Assembly: GCA_964016885.1 (NCBI GenBank)
Contig: OZ024760.1
Coordinates: forward strand, 17,484,001 to 17,548,000
Source: Eledone cirrhosa
Taxonomy: Eukaryota
Direction: 5' to 3'
Length of the DNA stretch: 64,000 bases
Below the pieces are notes generated by a model. The model saw nothing but the letters and a program-made list of their open reading frames with translations. It was not told the origin of the DNA and searched no databases. Shown here in pieces: positions 1-64,000 of the stretch; position 1 is the first letter of the stretch; each line of letters starts with the position of its first letter. Both the position numbers and the translations under genes were made by a program.

Positions 1-622
1 GTCTATCTAGTGAACACTAGTCTATCCAGTAAACACTGGTCTATCCAGTAAACACTGACCTATCCAGTAAACACTGGTCTATCTAGTGAACACTGGTCTA
101 TCCAGAGAACACTGACCTATCCAGTAAACACTGACCTACTAGTGAACACTGGTCTATCCAGAGAACACTGACCTATCCAGTAAACACTGGTCTATCTAGT
201 GAACACTAGTCTATCCAGAGAACACTGACCTATCCAGAGAACACTGACCTATCCAGTAAACACTGGTCTATCTAGTGAACACTAGTCTATCCAGAGAACA
301 CTGACCTATCCAGTAAACACTGACCTATCCAGAGAACACTGACCTATCCAGTAAACACTGGTCTATCTAGTGAACACTAGTCTATCCAGTAAACACTGGT
401 CTATCTAGTGAACACTAGTCTATCCAATAAACACTAGTCTATCTAGTGAACACTGGTCTATCCAGTGAACACTGGTCTATCCAGTGAACACTGGTCTATC
501 CAGTGAACACTGGTCTATCCAGTGAACACTGGTCTATCTAGTGAACACTGGTCTATCTAGTGAACACTAGTCTATCTAGTGAACACTAGTCTATCTAGTG
601 AACACTAGTCTATCTAGTGAAC
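1..622. repeat. 19-bp tandem minisatellite (GTCTATCCAGTGAACACTG variants), intronic in NPEPPS; runs off the left edge
   Basis: Direct reading of about 32 near-identical 19-mers. Confidence 0.95.
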
Positions 623-825
623 ATTACTACTGGCCTAACCTATAAATATATCTCCAAACCAGTTAAGTGAAAATATCCAGTGACCATTTTTACATCTAAT
701 TTAATCTGACTAATTCTCTTCTCATTACATCATTATTCCCACTTCCCATGCCCCCAAAATTGTTGTCTTTGTGCCTAAATCAGAAACAATTGTCATTATA
801 CTCCTATATTTTTGTCAGTTTCCTC

Positions 826-2326
826 TGAGAAAGACATATCTAACTTACCAAGGCAAAGAGATCACACTGTAGGGCCCTTCCCCTGCCCCCATGAGAAAGA
901 CATATCTAACTTACCAAAGCAAAGAGATCACTCTGTAGGGCCCTTCCCCTGCCCCCATGAGAAAGACATATCTAACTTACCAAAGCAAAGAGATCACTCT
1001 GTAGGGCCCTTCCCCTGCCCCCATGAGAAAGACATATCTAACTTACCAAAGCAAAGAGATCGCTCTGTAGGGCCCTTCCCCTGCCCCCATGAGAAAGACA
1101 TATCTAACTTACCAAAGCAAAGAGATCACTCTGTAGGGCCCTTCCCCTGCCCCCATGAGAAAGACATATCTAACTTACCAAGGCAAAGAGATCACTCTGT
1201 AGGGCCCTTCCCCTGCCCCCATGAGAAAGACATATCTAACTTACCAAAGCAAAGAGATCGCTCTGTAGGGCCCTTCCCCTGCCCCCATGAGAAAGACATA
1301 TCTAACTTACCAAAGCAAAGAGATCACTCTGTAGGGCCCTTCCCCTGCCCCCATGAGAAAGACATATCTAACTTACCAAAGCAAAGAGATCACTCTGTAG
1401 GGCCCTTCCCCTGCCCCCATGAGAAAGACATATCTAACTTACCAAGGCAAAGAGATCACTCTGTAGGGCCCTTCCCCTGCCCCCATGAGAAAGACATATC
1501 TAACTTACCAAAGCAAAGAGATCACTCTGTAGGGCCCTTCCCCTGCCCCCATGAGAAAGACATATCTAACTTACCAAAGCAAAGAGATCACTCTGTAGGG
1601 CCCTTCCCCTGCCCCCATGAGAAAGACATATCTAACTTACCAAGGCAAAGAGATCACTCTGTAGGGCCCTTCCCCTGCCCCCATGAGAAAGACATATCTA
1701 ACTTACCAAAGCAAAGAGATCACTCTGTAGGGCCCTTCCCCTGCCCCCATGAGAAAGACATATCTAACTTACCAAAGCAAAGAGATCACTCTGTAGGGCC
1801 CTCCCCCTGCCCCCATGAGAAAGACATATCTAACTTACCAAAGCAAAGAGATCACTCTGTAGGGCCCTTCCCCTGCCCCCATGAGAAAGACATATCTAAC
1901 TTACCAAAGCAAAGAGATCACTCTGTAGGGCCCTTCCTTGTCCCCATGAGAAAGACATATCTAACTTACCAAGGCAAAGAGATCACTCTGTAGGGCCCTT
2001 CCCCTGCCCCCATGAGAAAGACATATCTAACTTACCAAAGCAAAGAGATCACTCTGTAGGGCCCTTCCCCTGCCCCCATGAGAAAGACATATCTAACTTA
2101 CCAAAGCAAAGAGATCACTCTGTAGAGCCCTTCCCCTGCCCCCATGAGAAAGACATATCTAACTTACCAAAGCAAAGAGATCACTCTGTAGGGCCCTTCC
2201 CCTGTCCCCATGAGAAAGACATATCTAACTTACCAAAGCAAAGAGATCACTCTGTAGGGCCCTTCCCCTGTCCCCATGAGAAAGACATATCTAACTTACC
2301 AAAGCAAAGAGATCACTCTGTAGGGC
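826..2326. repeat. 66-bp tandem array (~23 units) derived from the NPEPPS exon 14/intron junction
   Basis: Unit GAGAAAGACATATCTAACTTACCAAAGCAAAGAGATCACTCTGTAGGGCCCTTCCCCTGCCCCCAT. The rightmost unit overlaps the exon end and its GTAAGT donor. One unit is 65 bp. Confidence 0.95.
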
Positions 2327-2434
2327 TAGTCTGTTGGTTGGTGGGATGGTTCTGTCAACAATACCTTTCAACAAGGACTGCAACATGTCACTACTGTATT
2401 GAACTCGGTACACTCCAACTGAGTTGCAGTTCAA
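2300..2434 (-). CDS. NPEPPS: NPEPPS coding exon 14
   Basis: cag|[45 protein letters not shown]|gtaagt. Confidence 0.9.
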
Positions 2435-5400
2435 CTGGAATAAATAAATAACATATATTATGGTATGGACCCCAGTACTTGACTGGTATTTTTTTTTTAT
2501 ATCAACTTTAAATGGATGAATGGCAAAGTTAACCTACACACATACACATACAATATATATATACACACATACACATACATCATCATCATATCATCATCAT
2601 CATACAATATATATATATTCATATATCATCATCATCATACAATATATATATATATATACACATACAATATATATAGACACACACACAATATATATATATA
2701 CACAAACATATACAATATATATATACACAAACACATACACCCATGCTAGGTGGAAGATGGATGTTAAACAAAGATGATGATATATATACACAAACACATA
2801 ATTTATATATACATACACACAATATATATATACACACACACAATATATATATATATATATATATATATGGTGGCTGCCAACTCGTTTTCGAGTACGGCCA
2901 CTACTTTATATCCATGTAGGAGAACTCCTACCAATGTGCTGAATGAGTGTGACTTTTTAGTCCAGCCAACGACTTGGTACAAACTCTGGTACAAACACTA
3001 CACTTGTGACAATTATTGACACATAGTGCTGGACCCATGGTACCATGTGACGACAAGTGCAGAGAGATCTCCAGATATAAAGCAATGCCTGTGCCATGAA
3101 GCTTTTATAGTGAGCAATGGCACTGCACAAAGCCAGTCCCACTCTCTTAACCAAGATGATATTTACCAAAAAGAAGAACATGTCAACATCATTGGATACC
3201 ATCAGAGTTGCAGGTGTTATATCAGAGTTTTCCTTCTCCTAGAATTCTGCCTTGACAAAGGCTAAGGGGTCATCTCTCCCAGTGATTTTGGATGGCCATT
3301 GACTCTTAAGAGCTCCTTTGCCCTTTGACAGGTTTTGTTTTATTCCTGCAGGATGTCCAAAGTCACCCTCCTCACCAAGAAACCTTGGTGGGGTTGCCAG
3401 TTTAGTCGCCAACGACCCGACCATGAGACAGGTTGTACTGGGATACATGTTGCCAGTAGCACCAACTGGTGACCTGACATACATATATATATATATACAT
3501 ACAGACACAGGTATACAATATGTACTCACCAACACCCACTCATCAGTTTTGACATTATCAAGAACCACCTCCATTGTCTCTCCTTCCATCAGAACCTTCT
3601 TGAAGGGTTTCTTCAGACTTGAGGATGTTGTGATATCAATAGGTATCATCCATTTGGAAGTTTTATCTGCAGGTGAAAAAATAGTGGACCAATGCAATTA
3701 CCGTATTAAGTCAGCTTCACATTACACATGTAATTGTGTTTGTGTATATATATCGACAGTCGATCGACAAGATCCCAGACCTCATGTGCTGAATGAATGG
3801 GGTGGAGATCGTCAAATTAGACCCAGGAAACAATGTTTCCATTGGTCTTTCCAATTGCTAAGACTATCTGTCAGTTGCAACTCCAGGTAGAAGGAGCAAC
3901 GTGAAATAAAGTGTCTTGCTCAAGGACATAATGCATCACCCAGTCCGGGAATTGAAATCACAACCTCACGATTGCGAATCCAATTCTCTAACCACTCAGC
4001 CATGCGCCTTCACTGAGTATATATAGTAGTACAACAAAAATATATCCTTTGTCGCATCACTAGTCTGAGGAGCAGATCGATACTGGAGTTGGGTCCATAA
4101 CTCCTATGGGTTACCTTGAGCCAATCCTCTGCGTAACAAGTCGATATGCAATAAATATTTTTCATATGTAAACAAAACTTCCTCATTTTTTCTATTATAT
4201 ATATATATATATATAAGATAGTTTTTTGAATTGAGACAAGTATGTCTGGATTTACATTTACTGTTCATATACTATGACTTAGCAGCTTGACAAACAGAGA
4301 CCTATAAAATAAATACCAGACTTCATCATCGACTAGATTCTCTGCAAAGCGGTGCTCCAGCACGGCCATAGTCCAATGGACTGAAGTCAGTAAAAGAATA
4401 AAAGAAAATAATGACATAGAGCAGTGGTTCCCAAAGAGGGTTCTGCAAATGAGTGTCTGGGATTCCATGAAAAAAGGTAGAGGATTATATTTATATTTCG
4501 ACCATATAACAGTATTAGATTTTGGGGTTCCCCCAAAAGTTTCTGAACCAAAAAGGGTTCCACGTTTGAAAAGGTTTGGGAAACCCCGACAGAGAATGAA
4601 TTAATTCCAGTTTTTACCTTCTAATTTACCATCGGCACAGAATTTCATTTGGGTTAGGTGTAGAACACGGCGGTTATCTTCTTTGGTTTCACTCACCTGA
4701 AAAGTGGAAAACATCAAATTAACACCTCCATTGCCATATTTCTAATGAAAAACACTTGCAACATGGGCAGAAAATACTCAGATATACATTGTAGGACTCT
4801 AAATACCCAGCCACACATAATTGAGCTAGCCAAGGATATTAACCCTTTAGCATTTAAACTGGCCATAACCAGCCACCCATACTTATGTTAAGGTATTGTT
4901 CTCAAAATATATAATATCAAAATCATGTAGATTCGATACTATATGAGATAAAGTGCTTACCATGAAAATATAATAGTAAATATAGAGTAATGTAAATGCT
5001 AAAGGGTTACCCAAATACATATTGTAGGGCTAGCCTAGGACATTAAATATCCAGGTACATATAAGGCTAGCCTAGGGTACTAAATACCTAGACACACATT
5101 ATAGGACTAGTATAGGGTACTAAATACCCAGACATACATTGTACAGCTAGCATAGGGCAGTAAATGAACAAGTACCTATTGTAGGGCAGCATAGGGTATT
5201 AAATACCCATGTACACATTGTAGGACTACTCAAGAACATTAAATATCCAGGCACCAGTTCTGCCTCTGCCATCAAATCACACTTCTTCATCAAATATACA
5301 CCAACCATTCATGACAACAGGATCTTATAAATGTTATTATCTCTTAACTCATACAATTCATTCCACAAACGTTATACTGGTTCTAACCAGTGTGTTTAAC

Positions 5401-6278
5401 CCTTTAGTTACCAACCCAGCCAAAACCAGCTCTGGTTCTGTGAAATAAAGACATCCATTTCAAAAGTTTACAATTAAAATCTTCCAACATAATTCCATAT
5501 AAAAACCTTACATTAGGTTATCTTAATAATTGTTTCTACTATTGGCACAAGGCCAGCAAATATTTCAGTGCATTACTGGTACTTTATTTTATCGACCCCC
5601 GTAAGGATGAAAAGCAAAGCTAACCTCGGCGGTATTTGAACTCATAATGGCAAGGGCCGTAACTCTATATGTCAAAGCATGCCGTCTGACCCTCTACCGA
5701 TACTGCCAATTCACCACCCTTAATAATGAAATAATTAATTATTTTACTAAATCCCTCAAAATTCTTCATTACTTAATTGAAATAGAATGTATTTCATTAG
5801 ATATGTGTTATGAAAGGGTTAAGGCCATGCTGTAGCCAAATGTAGTAGTTCTTACTTTGACAACAGGGTAGCCCATTTGAGATGTCCAAGTGCTCATAAC
5901 TTTCTTGATGGGTTTGCCACTAGCACTCTCTAGAGCATCCCACAGGTCTTCAGTGGCTGCATTCTTGTACATGAATTTTGTCAGGTAAGCATTCATACCT
6001 TTTCTGAAATCCTGAAATAAAATAAAATAAAATATCATCACCATTTAACGTCCACTTTCCATGTTGTATAAAAGGCAAGATGGCATTTATGAGATTTGAA
6101 ATTTAAATACCGAAAACATAGGAACCCATTCATACCATGTGAAGCATCTTGCTCAAAAATGTTTATAGCAGTATTTCATTAGATATATATACACATTGTA
6201 CACTATAGTTGGGTATATTAGTATTTCATTTTATATATATACACTATATACTATAGTTGGGTATATTGGTATTTCATT

Positions 6279-6311
<33 letters not shown>

Positions 6312-9300
6312 TTGTACACTATAGTTGGGTATATTAGTATTTCATTTTATATATATACACTATATACTATAGTTGGGTATATTAGTATTTCATTTTATAT
6401 ATATACACTATATACTATAGTTGGGTATATTAGTATTTCATTTTATATATATACACTATATACTATAGTTGGGTATATTAGTATTTCATTTTATATATAT
6501 ACACTATATACTATAGTTGGGTATATTGGTATTTCATTTTATATATATATATATATATACACACACATTGTACACTATAGTTGGGTATATTAGTATTTCA
6601 TTTTATATATATACATATTATAAAATGTATATATATATATATACACACACACACACATTGTACACTATGGTTGGGTATATTAGTATTTCATTTCATATAT
6701 ATGTATATATATATGCACTATATACTATAGTTGGGTATATTGGTATTTCATTTGATATATACATATATACACAATATACTATAGCTGTGTATATTGATAT
6801 GTACACCAACAACTTACTTTATCTTCAATATAGTTGTGCAACATTCTGATGACCGAGGCTCCTTTACAATAAGAGATGGCATCAAAGATTTCATCGACTT
6901 CTGATGGGTGACCAACTGGAACCTGCAAATATAGGAGACAGATATAAGGATTTCTACCACACTAAGGGAGAGTCAACTCCCACCTTAACCCCACAACAGC
7001 AACTAAATCAAAGTTAGTGAACAATAATAAATCAGAACTACACCTGGGTCTTAAATATTCGTCCCCCTCCACCACTTATCAATTTTTCAGACCCATCTCC
7101 TTATTAAATTTTACTAAAAAACATTATACATGACAAAAAAAAAAGTACATTACTAGAAATCCCATACGTTATAAAATAAATAGGATGGGTCGAGAGTCTC
7201 AATATGTAAACAAAACGACTAATTCTGGTTTTTAAAAAAAAATCAATGGAGACAACCTAGAAAAATTACCGATTTTCCAGTTATACTCCAGTGGTATTAC
7301 TGGTGACCAATAACAGATCAATCAATAATATAGCTGGAACCTATAACTAGTAACCAATGAAATATAATCGAACTGTATGTTACCTCAATTGGGTGACTTG
7401 TATGTAAGGCATCAAGCTTAAGAGCAGCTGCAAGTTCAGAAGTGACAAATTGGGTCCATATTTGGAAATCTGGAAACAGTTTATCTACACACAGGTATTC
7501 AATCCAAGAAGCAAAACCTTCGTTCAGCCAAAGGTGAGTCCACCATTCCTATGGAAAAATAAAATTAAACAAAAATAAAAATTGTGAACACACAGACATA
7601 TATATGTATATATATATATATACTCCTTCGAGTTTCTGTTCTTCCCCTATCCAAACTCTCCCGAAGAAGGACTTCTATCCAAAACATCGAAACCTCCACT
7701 TCCCCCCCAAGCACAAACTTAATATAACTGTATAAAAATGTCCTCCTGTTTTGTTTGTTTATTTTTCAACTAAATGTGTGTGTGTGCGTGTGTGCACGCG
7801 TGTGTGTGTGTGTGTGTGTGTATGCCAGGTTCAATCGTTCAATCGAGGGTAACCACAGTAAGTAAGGTTCTCAATACATTAGTAGAGTGTAAACATCATG
7901 TTTAATAGAGAAAAGGCTTCTACAGGACTAGAACTGTTTCATTCAAAAGAAACCACCATGGCAGCCAACTGTCCTTGTATTTATGTTTTCTGGTGGTTGC
8001 GGAAGGTGGTACAACCGACAGTTGGTTTTCCTGATGATTTCTTTTGAATGAAACAGTTCTAGTCTTGTAGAAGCCATTTTCATCCTTACAGGGTCGATAA
8101 AATAAAGTACCAGTAATGCACTGGGTGATTGCTGGCCTTGTGCCTAAAGTAGAAACAATTATATATACAAGTATATACAGTAATTACGACACACCATGTA
8201 TACAAAGACAGAGTGAATTTAAGATATGGAATTAAGTAGTTACCATGGTGACAAGATTTCCAAACCACATGTGTGCGAGTTCATGGCCAATAACAAGAGC
8301 GACAAGCTGACGGGCTTTAGCAGAAGAATTTTCTGCATCAATAAGTAAGGTGTTTTCTCTGTATGTGACCAAACCCCAGTTCTCCATAGCACCTACAATA
8401 CAACAATACAATATATTATATTAATATACTCATACAGACATCAGGCAACAAAATGAACAAGTTACACTGAAGGCACTTATTCCAAACAAGGAAAGAGACC
8501 AACCACAACCCCAGCATCCTAACCACTAAGCCACAGACACACATCTTTACAATAAGAGAGAAAATATTTACTGATCACTAAGATAATCTGAAGAAATTGC
8601 AGTGTTTTTACTGTTACCCAAATGAGGTAGCTATGAAGGGACTTTGGAGTAACATTACTTGATAAGAGTGTGTAGTTCGGAGATCACAAAACCGCTCCAG
8701 GTAGAGCCACTACTTCTCCAAATTCAGAGATCACAGCTCCGATACTATGGGTATGTGGTTAGAATGTCCCAGGAAAGAATCACTGGACATATTTGTAGCT
8801 CGGTGATCAGAGTCATTCCAGGTAGAGCCACTACTTCTCTGAATTGACAGATCACAGCTCCGATACTATGGGGATGTGGTTAGAATGTCCCAGGAAAGAA
8901 TCACTGGACATATTTGTAGCTCGGTGATCAGAGTCATTCCAGGTAGAGCCACTACTTCTCTGAATTGACAGATCACAGCTCTGATACTATGGGGATGTGA
9001 TTAGAATGTCTCAGGAAAGAATCGCAGGACAGATTTTACTTGGAAAAAAACGAACTGACAGAAGACCCAGGGGGTGTTAGACCTTGAGCAAAATGGTTGG
9101 ATAACATACATAAGCTCAGCTAGTCTCACTTGGGAATCCATCCAGATTAATTGGAAATGGTTGCTTCTAACAATACCAACTGGAAGGAGTGTTCGAAGAC
9201 TCTGCTCCCATGTCATTCCCAGGAATAAGTAGAAGACATTTATTCTAATCGAGAAAAGAAGCCAATTGTGAACCCAGCACCTTAACCACCAAGCCGTGCA

Positions 9301-9702
9301 CACACACACACACCTTCACAATAAGGGACTTAACCACTAAGCTATCCACACACACACACCTCTTTACAATAAGAGACCTAACCATTAAGCCATGCACTCA
9401 CACCTTCACAATAAAACAGAAAATATTTACTGACCACTAAGAAAATCAGGAATTGCAATGAGATCAATTTTAGGCAGTGGGTAGGCAATGTTGAAGTAAC
9501 TTTTATAGAATGGCAGTGTTTTTACAGTTACCTGGACAAGAAATAAACAGAAAGACATCATTAACAAAGTTATTTAGATTACATTCTTAAAAAAACATGT
9601 AAACACATCTACAATAAATAGGTATGTATATATATAGAGAGACACATATATACAGTAAATATGTGTGTATATATATATAGAGACACATATGTACAGTAAA
9701 TA

Positions 9703-9758
<56 letters not shown>

Positions 9759-9805
9759 TACAGTAAATATGTGTGTATATATATAGAGACACATATATAC
9801 AGTAA

Positions 9806-9850
<45 letters not shown>

Positions 9851-9897
9851 TATATACAGTAAATATGTGTGTATATATATAGACATATATACAGCAA

Positions 9898-9930
<33 letters not shown>

Positions 9931-10035
9931 GACACATATATATACAGTAAATATGTGTGTATATATATAGAGAGACACATATATACAGTAAATGTGTGTA
10001 TATATATATAGAGACACATATATATACAGTAAATA

Positions 10036-10075
<40 letters not shown>

Positions 10076-13000
10076 TATATACAGTAAATATGTGTGTATA
10101 TATATAGAGACATATATACAGTAAATATGTGAGTATATATATACAAACATATATACAGTAAATATGTGTGTGTATATATATATATATATATACAAACACA
10201 TATACACAGTAAATGTGTGTGTGTGTATATATAAAGTGCAACAAAACAGCATCGTAATGTCTGTGCAAGAGTGAGTAAATCCTTATCAGGACTAAAAACC
10301 ACATCTCTGCTGCTGAAGTATCAAGTGATAACATTATTCAAAATTGAGTTGCAGCCATCATATTTGTATGTATGTATATATATATAAATATATACACATA
10401 CATATATATATATACACACATATATATATACATACGCATATACATATATATATATCTCCAAACACATATATATATATACACACACGTGTACATGTATGAG
10501 TATCTATCTGTACATAAGTGTGTATAGGTATGAGTATGTATATGTGCGAGTGTGTATGAGTGTGTGTATATGTATATGAGTGTGTGTATATGTATGAGTG
10601 TGTGTATATGCCTTCACAGTAAAATAACATCAAACACAAATAACATACATCTAGAGCAAACTGTCCTTGGTCCTTCTTCTCAAGTGGCGTGTAAACCCTG
10701 ACGACAACACCATCAGCATCCTTGGATTCCAGGTAGTCAAATTCACCGATTATAAAGGCCAACAAATAGGTAGACATTTTAGGGCTTCTTTCGAACTTCA
10801 TCACCTTCAATTTAGGGTCACTTTTGTGAGTTTTCTCTTCACTGACAGGCTGAAAAAGGGGGGAAGAGGAAAACAAAACAGAAGAAAAATTAGAATTACC
10901 AAAGTTCAAACCATTTTAAGCAAAACAAACATATAGGATTGTTTCTTTGTCACAGCTAGAACAAAAAGATGACGATGGTTGTCTAAAACAGACATGTCAA
11001 ACTGAAGGTCCCCTGAAAGCAACATGGGTCTCATGTGTTGTCTGAGGGCCACATACGACAACTAATTGCGCACATTACAACTAACTTTTTTTATTTTATA
11101 TTACGAACATAAAACATGCTTGCGCTGTAAAAACCTTTGTGCGAGCCGCAGGTGTGCTTGTAAAGGGCCGCATGTTTGACATGCCAGGTGTAAAACACAT
11201 AACGTAATGAGACTGTTTGCTTGCAAACGAATCAATTAATATCATTATTTGATATAAAACTCAAACGCACAAACATAAATAAATATACTAGAAATAGCAG
11301 TAAATTTTCCTCCAACTTGCCCCCACCATTTTCGGAAAATAAGACGACAGCGAGCTTGTTGGAGGTCAGATTAGTTGAAAATACAGGTAAAACCTTAATT
11401 ATTATCAATTTTATTTAGTATTATTATTGGTCAACATGCAAAACAAACTTCCTTTTGATAAGGATATATAAATCCAAATTAAGTCTTTTTTTCCATGCTA
11501 GTAAATATATATATTACATACTCAGATAAATAATGAGAAAGTTAATTATACTACTAAATCCACTGTAAATGTGGTTGGCATTAGGAAGGACATCCAGCTG
11601 TAGAAAACCAGCCAAAAACACCCCTATTTGAGCGAGACACGGTCACCCGACACAACTTGCCTCAAAACAGGACCCGTCTAACCCATGCTAGCACGGAAGA
11701 TGCTGATAATGATGAAATCCCTCCAAATTGTTAATTATTTTCAAAATGATTTGAGAATTGTAGACAGTGTGTCTTTCGTTAGACATGGCCTGGGCCAATA
11801 CTGGTTGAAAGTTATCAAAGAGTGTTTTTCATTAGAAATATAGTAATGAAAGTGTTATGGTGGCCAATTGGCAGAGTTGTAGAACATCAGATAGAATGTT
11901 TTGCAGTATTTGTTCTGGCTCTCTGCACTCTGAGTTCAAATCCTAGAGGTTAACTTTGCCTTTTCTCCTTTTGAAGTTGATAATGTCCTAGTCCAGTACT
12001 GGGATTGATTTTTCCTCTCTCTTTCTTTCTCACTTCCCTCCTGTCTCACCTTCTCTGGAAGATATTGGCTGTGTATGTCAGCATGGCGCTCATACGACTC
12101 CTTCAGGAGTTACAGGTCCATACACACATACACACATACAAACATATTGGCTGCAGCTTGGTTTCGAGAACTGTGATCCCATGACATTCTTCTGGTACAT
12201 GGGTGGCACAAACTTCTCTTTTTAGCCCTGCAAAGGGCTTAGATTACTTTCTGCATATGCTGCAGCAAAAGACAAAAAAAAAAGAACAAGCCATGCTCAC
12301 GCAACACACAAGAAAGTCATTTAGATCAAGTGATGCCTGTGCTTGCAGCTTTTTATACATACATACATAATGAAAGGATTAAAAGCAGAAGTAGATGTAA
12401 AAAAACATAGATAATAACGATAAAGAAGAAATCCTTACCATATTTGACAATCCTGTTAAATGCTTAGGAAGAACTAAAGTGATGTCAAATGTAGCTTTGA
12501 ATGATGGTTCATCCCAACAAGGAAATGCACGGCGGGCATCTGTTGACTGTGAAACAGAGGTAAAAAGAAAAGGATAAGAAATAAACTTAGTAATACAAGT
12601 AAAATTCCATTATAACAAATATCATCATCATCATTTTACGTCCGCTTTTCCCTGCTTGCGTGGGACTATTTAGCACAGCATCTCTCCATTCTTCATGGTG
12701 CTTCGTCATCTCCTCCATGAGCTTTTTCATTACAACAAATTTATTTTTATACTCTTTGAATTTTGTTATAATGGAATTTCAGTTTTAATAACAGAGAATA
12801 ATAAAAAAAAACACAGTACATATTACTATGTCGGAACTGTCCAATCTAACTCTAATTTTTTTTTTTTTTTTACAACACTTTAAATATGGTTGGTGTTAGG
12901 AAGGGCATCTAGTCATAAAAACCAAGCCAGAAACAGTTCTGTATGAGCAAGACACAGTCACCTGACGCAACTTGCCTCAAATGAGACAACTCATCTAACC

Positions 13001-13828
13001 CATGCTCGTGTGGAAAATAGACAAACTATGATGATGATGATGAACTGTACAATACTATACACAATGGGGGGAGAGGGAAACAACATTTACAACTCACACT
13101 TATATATGTTTAGCTGGGCTCCTATGTTGTTACAGTTCACACGTATACAGGTATAGCAGCTGACACCCGTGTAGGTTTAGCTGGCTTCCTACGAAGATAT
13201 ACCTTATACGAGGCTTCTTTGGAGGTTTTAGATTCAATACTATATAAGATAAAGCCTTTACTGCGAAAATACACTAGTATATATAGAGTAATGTAAATGC
13301 TAAAGGGTTAATAGGAACAAACTCTCCAAACTTCAACACTTACCTCAAACTGAGTAACAGCCAAATGAATGACCCTGCCACTTGGAACAGTATACTGACT
13401 GTGATAAAAACCTCTCATTCGATTATTGAGTTCCCCTGAAAACTCAACATGGAGGGTACCGAAACCAACCTGAAAATCAAAAAGAAGAACTGTTAGAAAT
13501 TTAGGTTAAAAATATTAAATGAACGTAAAGATATTATGTACCACACCTACCTTAACTGTCATTCCTTGCCCAGGACACACTATTGGATGTATTTTTTGTG
13601 ACACCAGCACTACCACTTTACAAGGTGGAGTGGGTGCATTTTATTGTGACACCAGCAGTACCACTTTACAAAGTGTACAGGGTATATTTTATTTAACACC
13701 AGCACTTCCACTTTACAAAGTGTACAGGGTGTATTTTATCATGACACCAGCACTACCACTTTACAGAGTGTACTGGGTGTATTTTATTGTGGGACCAGCA
13801 ACAGGAAAGATAGATGAGAGAGAGGGTA

Positions 13829-13862
<34 letters not shown>

Positions 13863-16800
13863 TCAGGGTGAGAGAAGAGAGAGAGGGGGAAGTGACAACT
13901 GACAGCCCATCATGAGGTGAGGTGTTTGATTCATAAGAACGCCCCTGCCTTTCAAATTAAAACCAAAACAACAGCAACAACAATACATACCTTCAAAGAA
14001 TCGGGAAAGGAAAATACGACATTCTCATTTTCCTTGACATGAGAAATGGTAGTGACAACAGATTCTCCATCTGCAATGAGAAAATCCACAATAGTAAACA
14101 ACTCTGATATAGCAGAAATACTCTTGGGTTTCAAATAATTGTCCTTCAACCCTGCTTATTAATTTTTCAGATTTTTTCCAACCCACCCGCTCATATTCCA
14201 ACCCCCCACCCTTGCTTATTAAATTTTGCTAATCTCTGGCAAAATTTTATTTTAAGTTGTAGCATTTCTGCAACAATTGATTTTCTTTAGACATTAAAAA
14301 ACATTATACATGATGAAAAACGTACATTACTAGAAATCCCATATGTTATAAAATATATAGGAAGGTTTAGAGTCTCAATATGTAAACTAAATGACTAATT
14401 CTGGTTTAGTGGTTAGAGCATTGGGCTTGCAATCGAAAGGTTGTGAGTTCAATTCTCAGACCGGGTAATGTGTTGTTTCCTTGAGCAAGACACTTTATTT
14501 CACATTGCTCCAGTTTACTCAGCTGTAGAAATGAGATGATAGGGACTATCATTCCACTGCAAAGTGGTCGTGGAGGTGCCACGGCAAAAAAGCACCCAGC
14601 ACTCACTGTAAATGAGGTTGGTGTTAGGAAGGGCATCCAGCTGTAGAAATCAAGCCAGAATCAGTTCCCGTCCCACCCTTGCAAGCAGGGAAAAGCGGAC
14701 GTAAAATGATGATGGTAACAGAGACAAACTAAAAAAATTAGATTTTCCAACCTCCCTTCCCTATCATTTGGAACCGAAATGGGGTTCTTCCGAAGAGTCT
14801 TTGGAGTAACATTACTCGATACAGTGCGTAGCTCGGAGATCAGAGAGTTACTCCAGGTAGAGCCGTTATTTCTCCGATTTGAGAGATCACAGCTCCGATA
14901 TTACGGACATGTGGTTAGAATGTATCAGGAAAGAATCCCTGGACAGATGTTATGGACAAAACCAACACGTAGGAGACCCAGGGGTAGACCTAGAGCGAGA
15001 TAGTTGGATAACATCCATGAGCTTGGCTGGTCTCACTTGGAGATCCAGCTGGATCAGTTGGAGACCGTTGTCTTTCCCTTGGACATCGGTGGTGTAGAGA
15101 GGGGAGCGGGTAATACATGGGCGACTGCTGGTCTTCCACAAACAACCTTGCCCAAGCTTGTGCCTTGGAGGGAAACTTTCTAGATGCAAAAACATGGTCA
15201 TTAATGACCGATGGAGGCTGCTAGGTTTGAATAAAAGAAAGGACGGTGCTGATTGGAACATATTTGATCATAGAACTCCTGGACAAAGGTTGATCTGAGA
15301 CTAAGCCACCATCATCACCACCATTAAAACCACTACTGCCACCAGCACCAAAACCACAACTACTATTGCCACCATCATCACTACCACCACATACAACAAG
15401 AGCTTACCTTTATACTTGAAGGAAGCCTTCGTAACATCAAGTTCAGCAGCATTTAATTTGAAACATTTCACGGACTCTTTAATCTACAATAGAAACAATA
15501 TATATAATATATATATTAACCGTTTAGCATTTACATTACTTTGAATGGAAAGAGGTGAGAGAATTCTGGCCAGATACAGCCGAAAACTTTATCTCATATA
15601 ATATCGAATCTATGAGATTTTCATATTATTTATTTTGAGAACAATACCTTAATGTCAGAATGAGCAACTAGTTTGAACAGAAAGAGGTGAGCGAATTCTG
15701 GCTGGATACATCCGGTTTAAATGCTAAAGGGTTAATAGTCAGAAAAACATCACCTAGAGCCACTACTCCTCCGAATTGAGAGATCACAGCTCTGATATTG
15801 TGGGCATCTGGTTAGAATGTCTAAGGAAAGAATCGCTGGACAGATTTAATGAGCAAAACCAACCGACAGGAGACCCAAGGGTAGATAGACCTCAGGCATG
15901 AGGGTTGGCTAACATCCGTGAGTTCAACTGGTTGCACTTGAGGATCAAGCAGGATCAGTTGGAGGTGGTTGCGAATCACATACCCATAGTATCAGAGCTG
16001 TGATCTGTCAATTCAGAGAAGTAGTGGCTCTACCTAAAGTGACTCTCTGATCTCCAAGCTACAAATATGTCCAGTGATTCTTTCCTTAGACATTCTAATT
16101 ACATGCCCATAGTATTGGAGCTGTGATCTCTCAATTTTGAGAAGTAGTGGCTCTACCTGAAGTGACTTTCTGATCTCTGAGCTACAAATATGTCCAGTGA
16201 TTCTTTCCTTAGACATTCTAATTACATGCCCATAGTATTGGAGCTGATCTCTCAATTTTGAGAAGTAGTGGCTCTACCTGAAGTGACTTTCTGATCTCCA
16301 AGCTACAAATATGTCCAGTGATTCTTTCCTTAGACATTCTAATTACATGCCCATAGTATTGGAGCTGATCTCTCAATTTTGAGAAGTAGTGGCTCTACCT
16401 GAAGTGACTTTCTGATCTCTGAGCTACAAATATGTCCAGTGATTCTTTCCTTAGACATTCTAATTACATGCCCATAGTATTGGAGCTGATCTCTCAATTT
16501 TGAGAAGTAGTGGCTCTACCTGAAGTGACTTTCTGATCTCTGAGCTACAAATATGTCCAGTGATTCTTTCCTTAGACATTCTAATCACATACCCATAGTA
16601 TTGGAGCTGATCTCTCAATTTTGAGAAGTAGTGGCTCTACCTGAAGTGACTTTCTGATCTCTGAGCTACAAATATGTCCAGTGATTCTTTCCTTAGACAT
16701 TCTAATTACATGCCCATAGCATTGGAGCTGATCTCTCAATTTTGAGAAGTAGTGGCTCTACCTGAAGTGACTTTCTGATCTCTGAGCTACAAATATGTCC

Positions 16801-18437
16801 AGTGATTCTTTCCTTAGACATTCTAATTACATGCCCATAGTATTGGAGCTGTGATCTCTCAATTTTGAGAAGTAGTGGCTCTACCTGAAGTGACTTTCTG
16901 ATCTCTGAGCTACAAATATGTCCAGTGATTCTTTCCTTAGACATTCTAATTACATGCCCATAGTATTGGAGCTGTGATCTCTCAATTTTGAGAAGTAGTG
17001 GCTCTACCTGAAGTGACTTTCTGATCTCTGAGCTACAAATATGTCCAGTGATTCTTTCCTTAGACATTCTAATTACATGCCCATAGTATTGGAGCTGTGA
17101 TCTCTCAATTTTGAGAAGTAGTGGCTCTACCTGAAGTGACTTTCTGATCTCTGAGCTACAAATATGTCCAGTGATTCTTTCCTGAAACATTCTAACTACA
17201 TGTCCATAGTATTGGAGCTGATCTCTCAATTTGGAGCTGAAGTGAGCTCTGATTTCCAAGCTATGAATTTTATCGAGTAACCCTCCATTTTGGCTGCTTG
17301 TATTTGCAATCATTTTTTTTATTTTTAGGTCAATAGACAAATTTCTAATTCACAATATCGACAAGAGGTGAAAATTAATACACAATACATTCACAATAAT
17401 TTAATAATTGTTTCTACTTTTGGCACAAGGCCAGCAATTACCCAGTGCATTACTAGTACTTTATTTTAATAATGGTTTCTTTATTAATAATTTAATAATA
17501 GAAACAAAAGAAAAAAAGTCGTATTCATCGAACGCCCAACCTTTTATTTCTAATACACATCCGGCTAAATGTCTTGTTTAACTCTAGGTCAGACCTGATT
17601 AGTGATCAAAAAGCTTTTTTCAGACAGGACCACACACACATTTGTTTTTCAAATATAATACATCTAGAACTATTACATTATTTAACACTCTCCTCTTTAG
17701 AAGGCATGGGTTAATTCAAGTGACATTTAGCTGCTATTTCTAGTCAGTGAAGTGGCCACGTTCTACGTAGGACATGCAGCTCCATATGTCGTCTATAACC
17801 AACCATGCCAGACCTGAACCAGGCAGATGTGTGACCACAAAGCCTAGTCATATCCACCCAGTTTCTGATTCAGACACAATACACCAAGGACCACATTGTC
17901 TAATATTTCTTTCATCCACCCCCACCCCCCTTCTTCTTTAGTAGGCATAGTTTAAGATTAACGAGACATTGGGCTGCTATTTCTAGCCAATCAATCGGCA
18001 ACGTAGAGGATCTTCCGTTGGTTTAACCCAGGGTATAAAATTTATTAAAATCACCACACAATACAGTGTTAATATAAAGTCTACAATTTTAAATATAATT
18101 AAATTCACGACCCCCCCCCCCCCCTAAAATTGGGGGTAAATAAACCGACCGAATTTCAGAATAGGCACCACTGGTTTAATTTTCTTTTACAATTTATTTT
18201 TATAAAATATTTTTTTACTTAAAATGGACAGTGAGTGGACAGAGACATTAAATTGTAACAAATTGAAACACTTTAAAAAATATGCAAAGATTTAGTCGTT
18301 ATCTCTCTATATAATCACAATTGTATGCCGCCGCCTCCGTATATATATATGTGTATATATCACCTATATATTATGAAATACTGTGTGCTTCTTGCTCATA
18401 ATAATTTCTACACTTTTCATTTATATGTGTATATATA

Positions 18438-18469
<32 letters not shown>

Positions 18470-18592
18470 TCAGCTTGAAACTGGTTTGACCAGAACTGGT
18501 CGTTGAAACGGCAAGAGTTCGGCCGTCAGGGTCATGATTCTTTATAATTATATATATACAGGTGTGTATATATATATATTCACACATATGTA

Positions 18593-18623
<31 letters not shown>

Positions 18624-19251
18624 GTATATAGAGAACAGCAGATATGGTCAGACACATGGAGAAGACATTAGCAGTATATAATATATATATATATATATAT
18701 ACAAACAGGATGTCCCCCAAAAATGTATACACACTTCAACAGCATTCAAATAAATATTGCCTGTACAGGTAATCAAAGTGTGTATACATTTTTTTGCACA
18801 CCCTGTATATATATAACAAATATGTAATAAAATCTCTTTATTATAGTAATAAAACTAATAATTCTTTCTTCTTTGTTATCATAGTAACAAGATAAGGCTC
18901 GTTTATTGAAGTAACATTACAACAGTATAGTATAGTACAAACAATATGGTATTACTATAATAAAACAAACTACTTTTGGCACAAGGCCAGCAATTATCGC
19001 AGTGTATTACTGGTACTTTATTTTATCGACCCCGTAAGGATGAAAGACAAAGTTAACCTCGGCGGGATTTTAACTCAGACCGCAAAGGGCCGTAACTCTA
19101 TGCCGCAAAGCATGGCGTCCGACCCTAAAATAAAACAATAATGCCGCAGTTTTAGCGCCGGCGCCGGACAATAAGCTTCCGGCATGCCGGACTACAGGCG
19201 ATCCAGTTTCAATTTCCGTTTTAAGCAGCTTGACTTCTCTTTCTCTTTCAT

Positions 19252-19284
<33 letters not shown>

Positions 19285-19579
19285 CATAAATATATGTATA
19301 TATACATAAATATATGTATATATATATATATATATATATACACAGGGTGTCCCCAAAAATGTATACACACTTTGATTACTTGTACAGGCAATATTTATTA
19401 GAATGCTGTTAAAGTGTGTATACGTTTTTGGGACACCCAGTATATATATCTATATATTATATATATAATAAAGATCGGGGACCGACGGCTGAGCCCTGCC
19501 GTTTCAACAGCCAGTCCCATAAATATATACACTTTGATTAGAATGCTGCTGAAGTGTGTATACATTTTTGGGGGACACC

Positions 19580-19639
<60 letters not shown>

Positions 19640-20171
19640 GGTGTCCCCCAAAAATGTTGGCTTTCATGATTTCATACGAATGAAACAGTTCTAGTCTTGT
19701 AGAATGATCTTTTCACTAGACTTATGTATTGAGTACATTGTTTTATTGTGGTTACTCCTGATTTAACTCGGGATCTACACATATATAGCATATATGCTAT
19801 ATATATATATATATGTTATATATGTGTAGATCCCGAGTTAAATCAGGAGTAACCACAATAAAACAATGTACTCAATACATAAGTCTAGTGAAAAGATCAT
19901 TGTACAGGACTAGAACTGTTTCATTCGTATGAAATCATGAAAGCCAACACATTTTCAAATGGAGATGAAAAAGAAATGTTCCTGTTAATGTCCTAAATAA
20001 ATTATTTTTCAATGAAAAAAAAGACAAACCTTCAGATCATTTTTTTTCTTCTCCCTCCCGCTGTTGTCTATATTGTGTGGACATTATATACACACACACA
20101 CACATTATATATACATATATATATAGAGGGTGTCCCCCAAAAATGTATACACACTTTAGCATTCTAATCAA

Positions 20172-20202
<31 letters not shown>

Positions 20203-20245
20203 AATATACATGTATATATATATACATATATATGTATATACACAC

Positions 20246-20295
<50 letters not shown>

Positions 20296-20450
20296 TCCAG
20301 AAATAGTCATCGAAACGGCTTGAGCTCTGCCGTCGGGGTTAAACATTTTCCTATATATATATATATATACACACATGTGTTATATATATATATATTATTG
20401 CACAGTCATTACATCTAAATTATATATGTATGTATAAATGCCGCTATATT

Positions 20451-20485
<35 letters not shown>

Positions 20486-20624
20486 AATATATATAACTTA
20501 CTTCAACATCAATATCGCCGGATCCGGTGAATGTGAATTTCTCCAAGTCTGGTTGGAATTTTAGGGCATAATTGATGGGTAAAACAGATGAGGGTAGGTG
20601 TTCAAACGGACGTCTCTCAGCCAT
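2300..20624 (-). CDS. NPEPPS: Puromycin-sensitive aminopeptidase (M1 zinc aminopeptidase), 5' part: 14 coding exons, 579 codons, gene continues beyond position 1
   Basis: GT-AG exons join in frame: 20502-20624, 15408-15483, 13991-14070, 13344-13469, 12439-12546, 10649-10849, 9435-9531, 8244-8392, 7384-7548, 6818-6922, 5856-6011, 4618-4696, 3530-3666, 2300-2434. Motifs: [28 protein letters not shown]-x18-[10 protein letters not shown]-terminus [11 protein letters not shown] resembles vertebrate MPEKRPFERLP. Confidence 0.95.
2868..3160. mobile_element. Unclassified dispersed repeat; second copy in opposite orientation at ~53262-53543
   Basis: Near-identical ~290 bp sequence at two loci, both adjacent to (TA)n. 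Confidence 0.75.
3175..3478 (-). mobile_element. RTE-clade 5'UTR-derived non-autonomous element
   Basis: Minus strand contains CTAGGAGAAGGAAAACTCTGA, a motif recalled from RTE LINE 5'UTRs. Its 5' end has HDV-like ribozyme features (see findings). Confidence 0.5.
3530..3666 (-). CDS. NPEPPS: NPEPPS coding exon 13
   Basis: [46 protein letters not shown]; cag/gtgagt. Confidence 0.9.
4618..4696 (-). CDS. NPEPPS: NPEPPS coding exon 12
   Basis: [26 protein letters not shown]; cag/gtaaaa. Confidence 0.88.
5520..5720 (-). mobile_element. tRNA-derived SINE (dominant family). Further copies near 11865, 18970, 24995, 25210, 27770, 29475-29870, 47370-47765, 53670, 53964, 56066.
   Basis: B-box-like GAGTTCAAATCCCGCCGAGG plus shared TTTGCCTTTCATCCTTACGGGGTCGATAAAATAAAGTACCAG core and (ATT)n tail. 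Confidence 0.85.
5856..6011 (-). CDS. NPEPPS: NPEPPS coding exon 11
   Basis: [52 protein letters not shown]; cag/gtaag. Confidence 0.93.
6165..6800. repeat. ~48-bp AT-rich intronic minisatellite
   Basis: Repeated TATACTATAGTTGGGTATATTAGTATTTCATTTT(AT)n. Confidence 0.9.
6818..6922 (-). CDS. NPEPPS: NPEPPS coding exon 10 (catalytic Tyr region)
   Basis: [35 protein letters not shown]; cag/gtaagt. Confidence 0.95.
7384..7548 (-). CDS. NPEPPS: NPEPPS coding exon 9 (third Zn ligand Glu)
   Basis: [55 protein letters not shown]. Confidence 0.95.
8244..8392 (-). CDS. NPEPPS: NPEPPS coding exon 8 (GAMEN and HEXXH)
   Basis: [50 protein letters not shown]. Confidence 0.97.
8521..8618 (-). pseudogene. 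Decayed, internally deleted duplicate of NPEPPS exon 7 with flanking intron
   Basis: AAAATATTTACTGATCACTAAGATAATC..AATTGCAGTGTTTTTACTGTTACC aligns to 9420-9457 joined to 9513-9532. Both splice sites are mutated. Confidence 0.7.
8625..9210 (+). mobile_element. RTE-clade LINE 3' fragment with ~3 internal tandem copies of a ~120-bp unit
   Basis: [32 protein letters not shown], an RTE RT C-terminal signature. Confidence 0.8.
9435..9531 (-). CDS. NPEPPS: NPEPPS coding exon 7
   Basis: [32 protein letters not shown]; cag/gtcagt. Confidence 0.93.
9600..10235. repeat. Compound minisatellite ACACATATATACAGTAAATATGTGTG(TA)n
   Basis: About 13 units with variable TA tracts. Confidence 0.9.
10649..10849 (-). 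CDS. NPEPPS: NPEPPS coding exon 6
   Basis: [67 protein letters not shown]. Confidence 0.95.
10989..11187. mobile_element. hAT-type MITE
   Basis: TIRs CAGACATGTCAAAC / GTTTGACATGCCAG with near-identical 8-bp flanks GTCTAAAA / GTGTAAAA (TSD). Confidence 0.75.
12439..12546 (-). CDS. NPEPPS: NPEPPS coding exon 5
   Basis: [36 protein letters not shown]. Confidence 0.96.
13344..13469 (-). CDS. NPEPPS: NPEPPS coding exon 4
   Basis: [42 protein letters not shown]. Confidence 0.95.
13991..14070 (-). CDS. NPEPPS: NPEPPS coding exon 3
   Basis: [27 protein letters not shown]; phases fit neighbours. Confidence 0.88.
14404..14715 (+). mobile_element. tRNA-derived SINE, second family (partial inverted copy at ~3885-4013)
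   Basis: A/B-box-like TAGTGGTTAGAGC..GAGTTCAATTC, CCTTGAGCAAGACACT core, GTTGGTGTTAGGAAGGGCATCCAGC segment and (GAT)n tail. Confidence 0.75.
14773..15070 (+). mobile_element. RTE-clade LINE 3' fragment
   Basis: [59 protein letters not shown]. Confidence 0.88.
15408..15483 (-). CDS. NPEPPS: NPEPPS coding exon 2
   Basis: [25 protein letters not shown]; tag/gtaagc. Confidence 0.88.
15516..15735. mobile_element. piggyBac-type MITE (related copies ~4840-5010, 13230-13312, 30720-31060, 31290-31495)
   Basis: TTAA-CCGTTTAGCATTTA ... TAAATGCTAAAGGG-TTAA termini. Confidence 0.75.
15978..17245 (-). repeat. ~10-unit tandem array (121/123 bp) derived from RTE reverse-transcriptase 3' coding sequence
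   Basis: Repeating 41-aa unit [41 protein letters not shown]. Confidence 0.9.
18705..20180. mobile_element. Cluster of Tc1/mariner-type MITEs (~18706-18805, 19342-19440, 19525-19585, 20127-20180; another at ~32745-32843)
   Basis: TIR CAGGGTGTCCCCAAAAATGTATACACACTTT flanked by TA-rich sequence. Confidence 0.7.
20502..20624 (-). CDS. NPEPPS: NPEPPS first coding exon (probable acceptor at 20654, implying an upstream exon)
   Basis: ATG at 20624, [41 protein letters not shown]|gtaagt; upstream ttcatcaccatcattacag acceptor. Confidence 0.9.
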
Positions 20625-42700: not shown

Positions 42701-43665
42701 TCGGGCAGACCTTCAGCTGTATTTTGTCAAGATCTATTTCCCTTCTACTATAAAATTTATAAAGAGGGAGTTAAGGGAGAAAGATAGTAACAAAGATATA
42801 CAGGGGGTGAGGGGAGAGAGAAATAACAAAGATATACAGGGGGTGAGAAATAACAAAGATATAAAGAGGGTGTGAGGGGAGAGAGAAAGGAACAAAGATA
42901 TAGAGGGTGTGAGGGGAGAGAGAAAGTAACAAAGATATAGAGAGTTGTATGAGGGGAGAGAGAAAGAAACAAAGAGGTAGAGAATATAAGGAGAGAAAGA
43001 GAGGGAGGAGGAGAGAAAGAGAGGGAGGAGGAGAGAGAGACAGTAATAAAATAAGACGGTGGGGGAGGGAGAACGTAAGACGGAGATAGAGAGAAAGTGA
43101 GGGGAGGGAGAAAGTAAGAAAGAGATAGAGAGGAAATGAGGGGAGGTAGAAAGTAAGAAAGAGATAGAGAGGGAGGGGAGGGAGAATGTAAGAAAGAGAT
43201 AGAGAGGGAGGGGAGAGAGAAAGTAAGAAAGAGATAGAGAGGGAGGAGAGAGAGAGAGAAATAAACGTGTTGGGTTGACTGAAGTGTAGGTGTAATGAGA
43301 GAGAGAAAGAGAGGGAGGGAGAACGACGCTACAGTGATGTACACATTCACACACATATATATACACTAACACACACACAGTAGTAACTTATCGTCTGCCA
43401 CAAACAACATCCAATGTTTACAATATTTCTACGAAGTTACGTTAATTATTTTAACATTTCTTCGTCGTTTTTCATTAAAATGGTGAATACGTTGTTGTGT
43501 CTTAGTCTGGTTTTATACGTTTATTTTTATCTGGTAGAGCAACTTAGCAAAGACTTTGTGTCGTTATGTCGTAACTTTGAAACCAATACTAATAACAGTT
43601 GAAGTCATGCAGGCTTTCAGCTGTATTTCTTCAAGATTATTTCCCTTTGACTATATAATGTTTAT
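33790..43665. repeat. Macrosatellite: ~12 units (~0.65-1.1 kb), each a conserved ~400-bp block plus a variable GA-rich spacer
   Basis: Anchor TAACTTATCGTCTGC (one variant copy) near 34028, 35126, 35721, 36677, 37381, 38017, 38924, 39773, 40567, 41516, 42436, 43384. Confidence 0.92.
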
Positions 43666-56764: not shown

Positions 56765-56807
56765 CGTATACAAAATCACTGAGGGCTGATCACAGTAAGG
56801 TAATCTA

Positions 56808-63900: not shown

Positions 63901-64000
63901 GGAGATAATTTTCAGCCGTCCAAGGAGAGGTAATTTCTAGCCGTCCAAGGGGAGATAATTTCCAGCCGTCCAAGGGGAGATAATTTCCAGCCGTCCAAGG
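57931..64000. repeat. Composite satellite of two ~24-29 bp monomers sharing a GGGGAGATAATTT core; runs off the right edge
   Basis: Monomer A CAGGGGGAGATAATTTGTAAAAAAAAT and monomer B CAAGGGGAGATAATTTCCAGCCGTC in alternating blocks. Confidence 0.95.

What the first reader, a model, noticed from the sequence alone, without database searches (positions are those of the whole stretch)
826..2326. 23 tandem copies of an NPEPPS exon end plus its 5' splice site
Seen: the 66-bp array reads on the minus strand ...GCCCTACAGAGTGATCTCTTTGCTTTG|GTAAGTTAG..., which is the last 27 nt of exon 14 and its donor. The donor G recurs from 2299 down to 848, giving 23 donors in near-identical context. An in-frame TAG follows the first donor, so using any later donor would add a stop. 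Each unit also holds cag|AGTGATCTCTTTGCTTTG|gtaagt, a formal 18-nt in-frame microexon (SDLFAL) between 48-nt spacers. Inference: an array of decoy U1 sites that could tune expression through NMD or give variable microexon inclusion, with copy number acting as a splicing QTL.
Basis: partly seen in the sequence, partly recalled or inferred. Interest (0 to 1): 0.72.

Follow-up and report, generated by a model that had tools for sequence, protein, structure and literature searches.

The report
Splice-donor minisatellite in octopus NPEPPS
The last 27 bases of one exon of an octopus-type aminopeptidase gene and its splice signal are repeated 23 times in a row, but the one spliced RNA assembly examined joins only at the first signal, so this is likely a tolerated repeat of a kind already known from human, lancelet and chicken genes.

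Summary
Window 826-2326 is a young 66-bp minisatellite (about 1% divergence) with 23 identical donors, following exon 14 of an octopod NPEPPS gene. DNA runs support it. One spliced contig (run X4, 3,248 nt) joins exon 14 at the first donor to the next exon and shows no cover on the repeat unit, though contigs drop rare variants. The proposed SDLFAL microexon has a G-rich acceptor context, unlike all 13 real acceptors of the gene. A stop before latent donors is ordinary (12 of 13 such sites in introns 1-13). The arrangement is a known class: human F7, IFI6, CBS, LMNB2 and PDGF arrays, lancelet 'mirages', chicken 'exon stuttering'. This scan noted it before in other genes of this genome (SHOC1, ECM29, GTF3C4) and in other genomes. 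New detail: 16 G-rich bases of each unit match DNA 69 bases beyond the array, so the unit likely arose by a two-step rearrangement. A small leak to decay that varies with copy number is not excluded. Low interest.

The parts
826..2326 (-). 66-bp minisatellite, 22 full units plus a 50-nt partial unit, spanning the exon 14 / intron 14 boundary
2300..2434 (-). NPEPPS exon 14, 135 nt, phase 0 at both ends; its last 27 nt (2326-2300) start the array
   Evidence: spliced contig in X4 lies on 2300-2435 with no differences
2294..2302 (-). authentic 5' splice site (donor G at 2299), the one used in the spliced contig
   Evidence: the loose end beyond 2300 reads into the next exon; its hand translation equals the residues that follow in P0029
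843..2236 (-). 22 downstream pseudo-donors (G at 2233, 2167 ... 914, 848), identical to the first from -3 to +9
   Evidence: no use seen
2291..2293 (-). in-frame TAG at intron +7 to +9; any later donor joined as an exon extension would include it
2261..2276 (-). first copy of the 16-nt G-rich spacer (unit positions 24-39), present only between copies; three G runs per unit counting the junction
2234..2251 (-). first copy of the formal 18-nt 'microexon' (SDLFAL); acceptor context is G-rich and unlike real acceptors
2168..2224 (-). formal 57-nt in-frame, stop-free pseudo-exon behind the TAG at unit position 9 (shown for unit 2); better acceptor score (-1.3 bits) but overlapping a donor; not seen in RNA
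741..756 (-). likely source of the 16-nt spacer: 14 of 16 match, 69 nt beyond the array's end, at the tail of a piece of a high-copy dispersed repeat (about 750-795)
3530..3666 (-). NPEPPS exon 13, joined to exon 14 in the spliced contig
2300..20624 (-). NPEPPS (puromycin-sensitive aminopeptidase, M1 family) exons 1-14; the remaining exons lie outside the window

Best explanation
This is a young minisatellite that copies the end of NPEPPS exon 14 and its splice donor 22 more times into the intron; the spliced RNA seen uses the first donor, and the other copies are likely silent passengers. Origin (inferred): a local duplication across the exon end was joined to 16 bases from 69 nt further down the intron, by a duplication followed by an internal deletion or by one template switch, and the 66-bp unit then grew by slippage or unequal exchange. 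Tolerance (inferred): each unit begins with an exact copy of the exon's last 27 nt, so gain or loss of whole units leaves the exon end and first donor intact. Site choice (inferred from F7): the most upstream donor wins, as it gives the shortest exon (135 nt, against 201, 267 and so on) and pairs across the exon with the only good acceptor nearby. Rare use of a later donor would add the TAG at +7 and would likely be cleared by NMD or suppressed as at any latent donor. The G runs between donors may add to the preference but are not needed to explain it.
For: Shown: array anatomy and about 1% divergence; intact 14-exon frame; one 3,248-nt contig in X4 joins exon 13, exon 14 and the next exon at the first donor, with no joints and no depth on 2200-2295; no good acceptor in the unit (best scores -0.8 and -1.3 bits against 0.8 to 10 for 13 real acceptors); none of 29 related proteins has an insertion at this junction (28 continue normally, one fragment diverges right at the junction); the spacer matches 756-741 at 14 of 16, reached by 0 of 2,000 shuffles and 0 of 614 other 200-nt windows. 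Context: tandem repeats cover 36% of the window and 1 of 14 donors lies in one. Literature: F7 uses only the first of 5-9 identical donors, and copy number from 1 to 12 did not alter this; LMNB2 and PDGF also use only the first (PMC1557585); mirages do not appear to disturb splicing (PMC3087553, passages).
Against: The RNA evidence is one run, kept as contigs, which drop rare variants. Its kind is '?' on record and is inferred to be RNA from the exon joins. Its sample (S2) is not shown to carry the array. Tables 7 and 8 were cut (34 and 1,149 rows not shown). NMD would hide products of later donors. IFI6 and CBS use two further copies (PMC1557585, introduction). The site-choice mechanism comes from mammalian cells and is untested in cephalopods. 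Copy-number variation was not shown.
Confidence: 0.8

Rival explanations
1. Leaky array acting as an expression dial: the second or third donor is used at a low rate, the product carries the TAG and is destroyed by NMD, and array length shifts the leak or slows splicing, making a splicing or expression QTL.
For: All 23 donors are identical and match the U1 consensus as well as most real donors of the gene (7 of 11 positions, range 6-9). IFI6 and CBS use two further copies (PMC1557585, introduction). A paper title in the reference list of PMC2630376 links the CBS 31-bp VNTR to reduced CBS activity (title only seen). Contigs cannot exclude rare or decayed forms.
Against: No unit sequence in X4 contigs beside a full-length mRNA contig of depth 121.5. 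In F7 minigenes copy number did not change site choice, and 50 extra clones showed no other variant (PMC1557585). A leak at donors 2-3 would not depend on whether there are 10 or 23 copies (inference). Polymorphism of the array is not shown.
Confidence: 0.14
2. Cassette array: units are included as 18-nt SDLFAL microexons, or as 57-nt in-frame cassettes, giving protein isoforms with extra repeats.
For: Both pieces are formally flanked by AG and GT, in frame and free of stops. 3 of 4 distinct substitutions in the exon-like 27 nt are at third codon positions, about 0.11 by chance (hand calculation).
Against: The 18-nt acceptor has 25% pyrimidines, scores about -14 bits and has another AG 8 nt upstream, against gaps of 18-93 nt in real acceptors. 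The 57-nt acceptor overlaps a donor and scores below all 13 real acceptors. No joint or insert in X4. No insertion in 29 related proteins, which come from other species. An insertion would fall inside the ERAP1_C domain (532-845 of P0001).
Confidence: 0.03
3. Assembly artefact: the repeat is not in the animal's DNA, or has far fewer copies.
For: No listed contig bridges array and flank, and exon 14 itself had no listed DNA contig in X1 or X2.
Against: A collapsed unit contig has about 20 times the depth of near-exact flank pieces in 3 of 3 DNA runs of sample S1. Units carry recurrent variants, such as one substitution shared by units 5, 10, 13, 17 and 22.
Confidence: 0.02

Closest known systems
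Human F7 intron 7 37-bp VNTR, with IFI6 (6-16; 25 pseudo-sites), CBS intron 13 (15-20 repeats), LMNB2 (10-15 x 100 bp) and PDGF intron 4 (16-18 x 81 bp); PMC1557585, read: abstract, introduction, first part of the results, section 10, discussion
   Same: The first unit spans the exon/intron boundary, identical donors repeat into the intron, copy number and unit length are in the same range, and the most upstream donor is used. F7 units also hold G triplets.
   Different: Octopod host; 27 exonic bases per unit (F7 has 4); a composite unit with a 16-nt piece from further downstream; polymorphism and function of the pseudo-donors untested here.
Lancelet 'mirage' minisatellites (Adh3, globins BflGb6 and BflGb9); PMC3087553, passages read
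   Same: [quoted passage not shown]
   Different: Length instability between haplotypes is shown for mirages and not here; this array is more uniform (about 1% divergence against 81-100% identity in BflGb6).
Chicken 'exon stuttering' on dot chromosomes; PMC12954441, abstract and passages read
   Same: Part of an exon with its donor or acceptor is copied through the adjacent intron, in a genome region rich in local tandem repeats (36% of this window).
   Different: There 236 introns in 115 genes were found and population length variation was measured; here one locus in one assembly.
Latent 5' splice sites behind in-frame stops (suppression of splicing); PMC3510495, abstract read; PMC1524910, search listing only
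   Same: Unused intronic donors preceded by an in-frame stop.
   Different: Here the latent sites are exact tandem copies of the real donor; the mechanism is described in mammals and untested in cephalopods.

Membership tests
Boundary-spanning minisatellite (F7 type, mirage, exon stuttering) | Head-to-tail array whose first unit spans an exon/intron boundary | tested here: met
   27 exonic plus 39 intronic bases, 22.8 copies
Boundary-spanning minisatellite (F7 type, mirage, exon stuttering) | Splice signal reiterated intact in the intron | tested here: met
   23 of 23 donors identical from -3 to +9
Boundary-spanning minisatellite (F7 type, mirage, exon stuttering) | Main mRNA is spliced at the authentic, most upstream donor | tested here: met
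   One spliced contig in X4; one run, contigs only, and the sample is not shown to carry the array
Boundary-spanning minisatellite (F7 type, mirage, exon stuttering) | Copy number varies between alleles or individuals | tested here: inconclusive
   RAD runs X21-X23 of three other samples do not cover the unit
Boundary-spanning minisatellite (F7 type, mirage, exon stuttering) | Pseudo-donors become active when the first is disabled | not testable with these tools
   Needs a minigene; shown for F7 in PMC1557585
Regulated microexon | 3-27 nt, in frame, flanked by AG and GT (size range recalled) | tested here: met
   18 nt, phase 0
Regulated microexon | Strong pyrimidine tract and AG-free zone upstream (recalled feature) | tested here: not met
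   25% pyrimidines, about 50% G, upstream AG 8 nt away; real acceptors 60-100% and 18-93 nt
Regulated microexon | Inclusion seen in mRNA or protein | tested here: inconclusive
   None in X4 contigs or in 29 related proteins; tissue unknown and rare forms dropped
Conserved AS-NMD (poison) element | Alternative form carries a premature stop | tested here: met
   TAG at +7 to +9; equally true of 12 of 13 latent sites in introns 1-13
Conserved AS-NMD (poison) element | Sequence conserved between species | not testable with these tools
   No orthologous intron could be fetched; about 1% divergence points to a recent origin
Conserved AS-NMD (poison) element | Isoform rises under NMD block | not testable with these tools
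   Needs an experiment
Puromycin-sensitive aminopeptidase (NPEPPS, M1 family) | Close identity to named orthologues with Peptidase_M1_N, Peptidase_M1 and ERAP1_C domains | tested here: met
   512 of 579 residues identical to P0001, which carries the three domains; the HELAH zinc motif is in the translation

The most novel reading that the evidence does not exclude
The array is a self-silencing splice dial. It could expand only because its founding rearrangement captured a 16-nt G-rich piece that sits between every pair of donors (three G runs per unit, against 0-1 in the first 66 nt of the gene's 13 other introns; G4Hunter-like score 1.64). That piece pushes splicing to the first donor, while a leak to later donors (decayed) or to a stop-free 57-nt cassette rises with copy number or stress and tunes NPEPPS output.
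Probability: 0.1. Interest if true: 0.5.

Novelty: new member of a known kind. Interest (0 to 1): 0.12.

Why it matters
As it stands it matters little: it is one more boundary-spanning minisatellite, small beside others that this scan noted in the same genome (ECM29 about 335 copies, SHOC1 about 1,850; AI notes, unchecked here). Its modest use is as a natural test that upstream-first donor choice, shown in mammalian cells, also holds in a mollusc with 23 identical donors. It is also a clear case where the origin of the unit can be read from the flank. It would matter more if array length were shown to change NPEPPS splicing or level, or if the captured G-rich piece were needed for silence.

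Tried and rejected
No whole genome is held, so no genome-wide count was possible. No RNA holder was listed as such; X4 was recognised as spliced only by laying it. Run X20 laid nothing. RAD runs X21-X23 covered only a dispersed repeat at about 750-795, and two X22 reads lay on about 710-805; none lay on the unit, so they say nothing on other individuals. RNA structure as the reason for first-donor use was rejected: the chance of being unpaired is 0.014 for donor 1, 0.018 for donor 2 and 0.0003-0.009 for the rest, within the range of the other 13 real donors (0-0.032). G runs as the necessary cause were considered and kept only as the novel case, because mutating G triplets in F7 did not change site choice (PMC1557585, section 10). 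A coding bias in unit variants (3 of 4 at third positions) is too few to count. The spacer could come from another copy of the dispersed repeat, but 11 other copies in the window match it at 4-12 of 16 against 14 of 16 for the adjacent one. The acceptor score is a rough model trained on 13 sites of this gene, not a validated tool. Pfam hits on the ORF over the 121-bp array had no passing stretch and were dismissed. Paper searches: 'microexon, eMIC, octopus' gave 0 papers; 'octopus, minisatellite, splice site' gave 1 review, not read; none of the 12 listed of 3,294 papers for 'NPEPPS, VNTR, minisatellite, cephalopod, octopus' (2 of 5 terms) contains NPEPPS. These searches found no report of this array, but cover open-licence papers only. 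No supplements were read. No look-alike earlier finding by place or sequence.

Full report
Observation. On the minus strand there are 23 donors from 2299 to 848; 21 of 22 full units are 66 nt and one is 65 nt. Each unit has 27 bases identical to the end of the exon, the first 23 bases of the intron, and 16 G-rich bases that occur only between copies. The units differ from their consensus at 15 of 1,451 bases, and all 23 donors are identical from -3 to +9, so the array is young or recently homogenised (inference). The in-frame TAG at +7 to +9 and the formal SDLFAL piece (21 of 22 units; one CDLFAL) are real.

Host gene. The exon matches puromycin-sensitive aminopeptidase of octopods best. Fourteen exons from 20624 to 2300 splice to an open frame of 1,737 nt, with 512 of 579 residues identical to Octopus sinensis and 504 of 579 to Argonauta hians. 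The animal is therefore likely an octopod other than these, and the exon is number 14. The later exons are outside the window, and no genome is held.

Is it in the DNA? In three runs of one sample a single 96-nt contig carries the collapsed unit at depth 108, 125 and 41, against about 4-6, 5-6 and 2 for near-exact flank pieces. A ratio near 20 fits 22-23 copies. The tool warns that contig depth is no copy number, the sample may be the assembly's source, and no listed contig bridges array and flank. RAD runs of three other samples did not cover the unit, so variation in copy number is untested.

What RNA shows. Run X4 (kind not on record; same organism label, another sample) holds a 3,248-nt contig of depth 121.5 lying on 2300-2435 without differences. 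One loose end is the end of exon 13. The other, read on the minus strand, translates by hand to the ten residues that follow this exon in O. bimaculoides. Splicing is thus at the first donor. X4 has no depth on 2200-2295 and no joint is listed. Limits: one run, contigs drop rare variants, tables 7 and 8 were cut, NMD would hide stop-bearing forms, and the sample is not shown to carry the array.

The microexon reading. At -23..-4 the proposed acceptor has 25% pyrimidines and about 50% G, with another AG 8 nt upstream. The 13 real acceptors have 60-100% pyrimidines and AG-free gaps of 18-93 nt. In a simple model trained on these 13 it scores about -14 bits against 0.8 to 10, and 94% of 830 intronic AGs score higher. 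Consecutive inclusion would need 48-nt introns, where the shortest of 13 is 461 nt. The best acceptor-like sites of the unit are other AGs: position 32 (-0.8 bits, 34 nt, out of frame) and position 9 (-1.3 bits), which would give a stop-free in-frame 57-nt piece but overlaps a donor. Neither is seen in RNA. None of 29 related proteins has an insertion here.

The decoy and NMD reading. The stop is no sign of design. All 13 complete introns have an in-frame stop within 289 nt, and 12 of 13 latent GTRAG sites lie behind one. This is the general state of mammalian introns (PMC3510495, abstract). Predicted RNA structure does not single out the first donor.

Origin. The 16-nt spacer matches 756-741 at 14 of 16. 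That is the best match in the window outside the array; 0 of 2,000 shuffles of the flank and 0 of 614 other 200-nt windows reach it. The place is the tail of a piece of a high-copy dispersed repeat, and 11 other copies in the window match at 4-12 of 16. The simplest account is a duplication across the exon end that skipped 69 intron bases, in one template switch or in two steps, followed by expansion (inference). Since each unit begins with the exon's own last 27 bases, whole units can be gained or lost without harming the exon (inference). Tandem repeats cover 36% of this window, and 1 of the gene's 14 donors falls in one.

What is known. PMC1557585 describes this arrangement in human F7 and lists IFI6, CBS, LMNB2 and PDGF, with 5 to 26 copies. 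In F7 the pseudo-donors work when the first is disabled but do not compete with it; neither copy number (1-12) nor G triplets changed the choice. In IFI6 and CBS two further copies are used, which counts against complete silence. Lancelet mirages (PMC3087553, passages) and chicken exon stuttering (PMC12954441, abstract and passages) are the same class. I found the F7 paper before the scan's notes; the notes led me to the other two papers. They also list similar arrays in SHOC1, ECM29, GTF3C4 and other genes of this genome and in other genomes; these are AI notes that I did not check. Searches found no report of this array. No supplements were read.

Verdict. A real, young, boundary-spanning minisatellite whose later donors are likely silent (0.8). 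A low leak to decay that depends on copy number is the main rival (0.14); a cassette array (0.03) and an artefact (0.02) are unlikely. New member of a known kind; interest 0.12.

Noticed in passing
window 1-623: A second minisatellite (19-bp unit, at least 32.8 copies, cut by the window edge) lies in the same intron 14, about 200 nt beyond the donor array.
   Followed up: no
window 8696-9036 and 15974-17236: Two arrays with the same 121-bp period in introns 7 and 1 share their unit (84-90% identity, opposite strands), so one dispersed sequence was likely amplified twice at the same period. The frame at 16702-17349 looks like the tail of a LINE protein (recalled; Pfam gave only spurious hits).
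   Followed up: partly
window about 34800-43400: About nine to ten blocks of a GA-rich 36-bp minisatellite recur every 0.5-0.95 kb with the same flanking sequence: a compound satellite with a variable inner array, causing a strong strand skew.
   Followed up: no
window 56806-64000: A 9-bp array of 124 copies is followed by a 6-kb array of mixed 25-28-bp units that runs to the window's end.
   Followed up: no
window about 750-795 and 2464-2500: Pieces of very high-copy dispersed repeats flank the exon and array (summed depth above 300,000 in X3 at 760-779); 12 related copies of the first lie in the window.
   Followed up: partly
window 826-2326: 3 of 4 distinct substitutions in the exon-like 27 nt are synonymous in the exon's frame, and the 23 intron-start bases carry no variant in any copy. 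Too few to test; exchange with exon alleles could produce this.
   Followed up: partly
protein P0005 (unnamed fragment): It diverges from all other homologues right after the same residue and starts with Val, as a read-through into an intron would. This hints that the intron position is shared with a distant mollusc.
   Followed up: no
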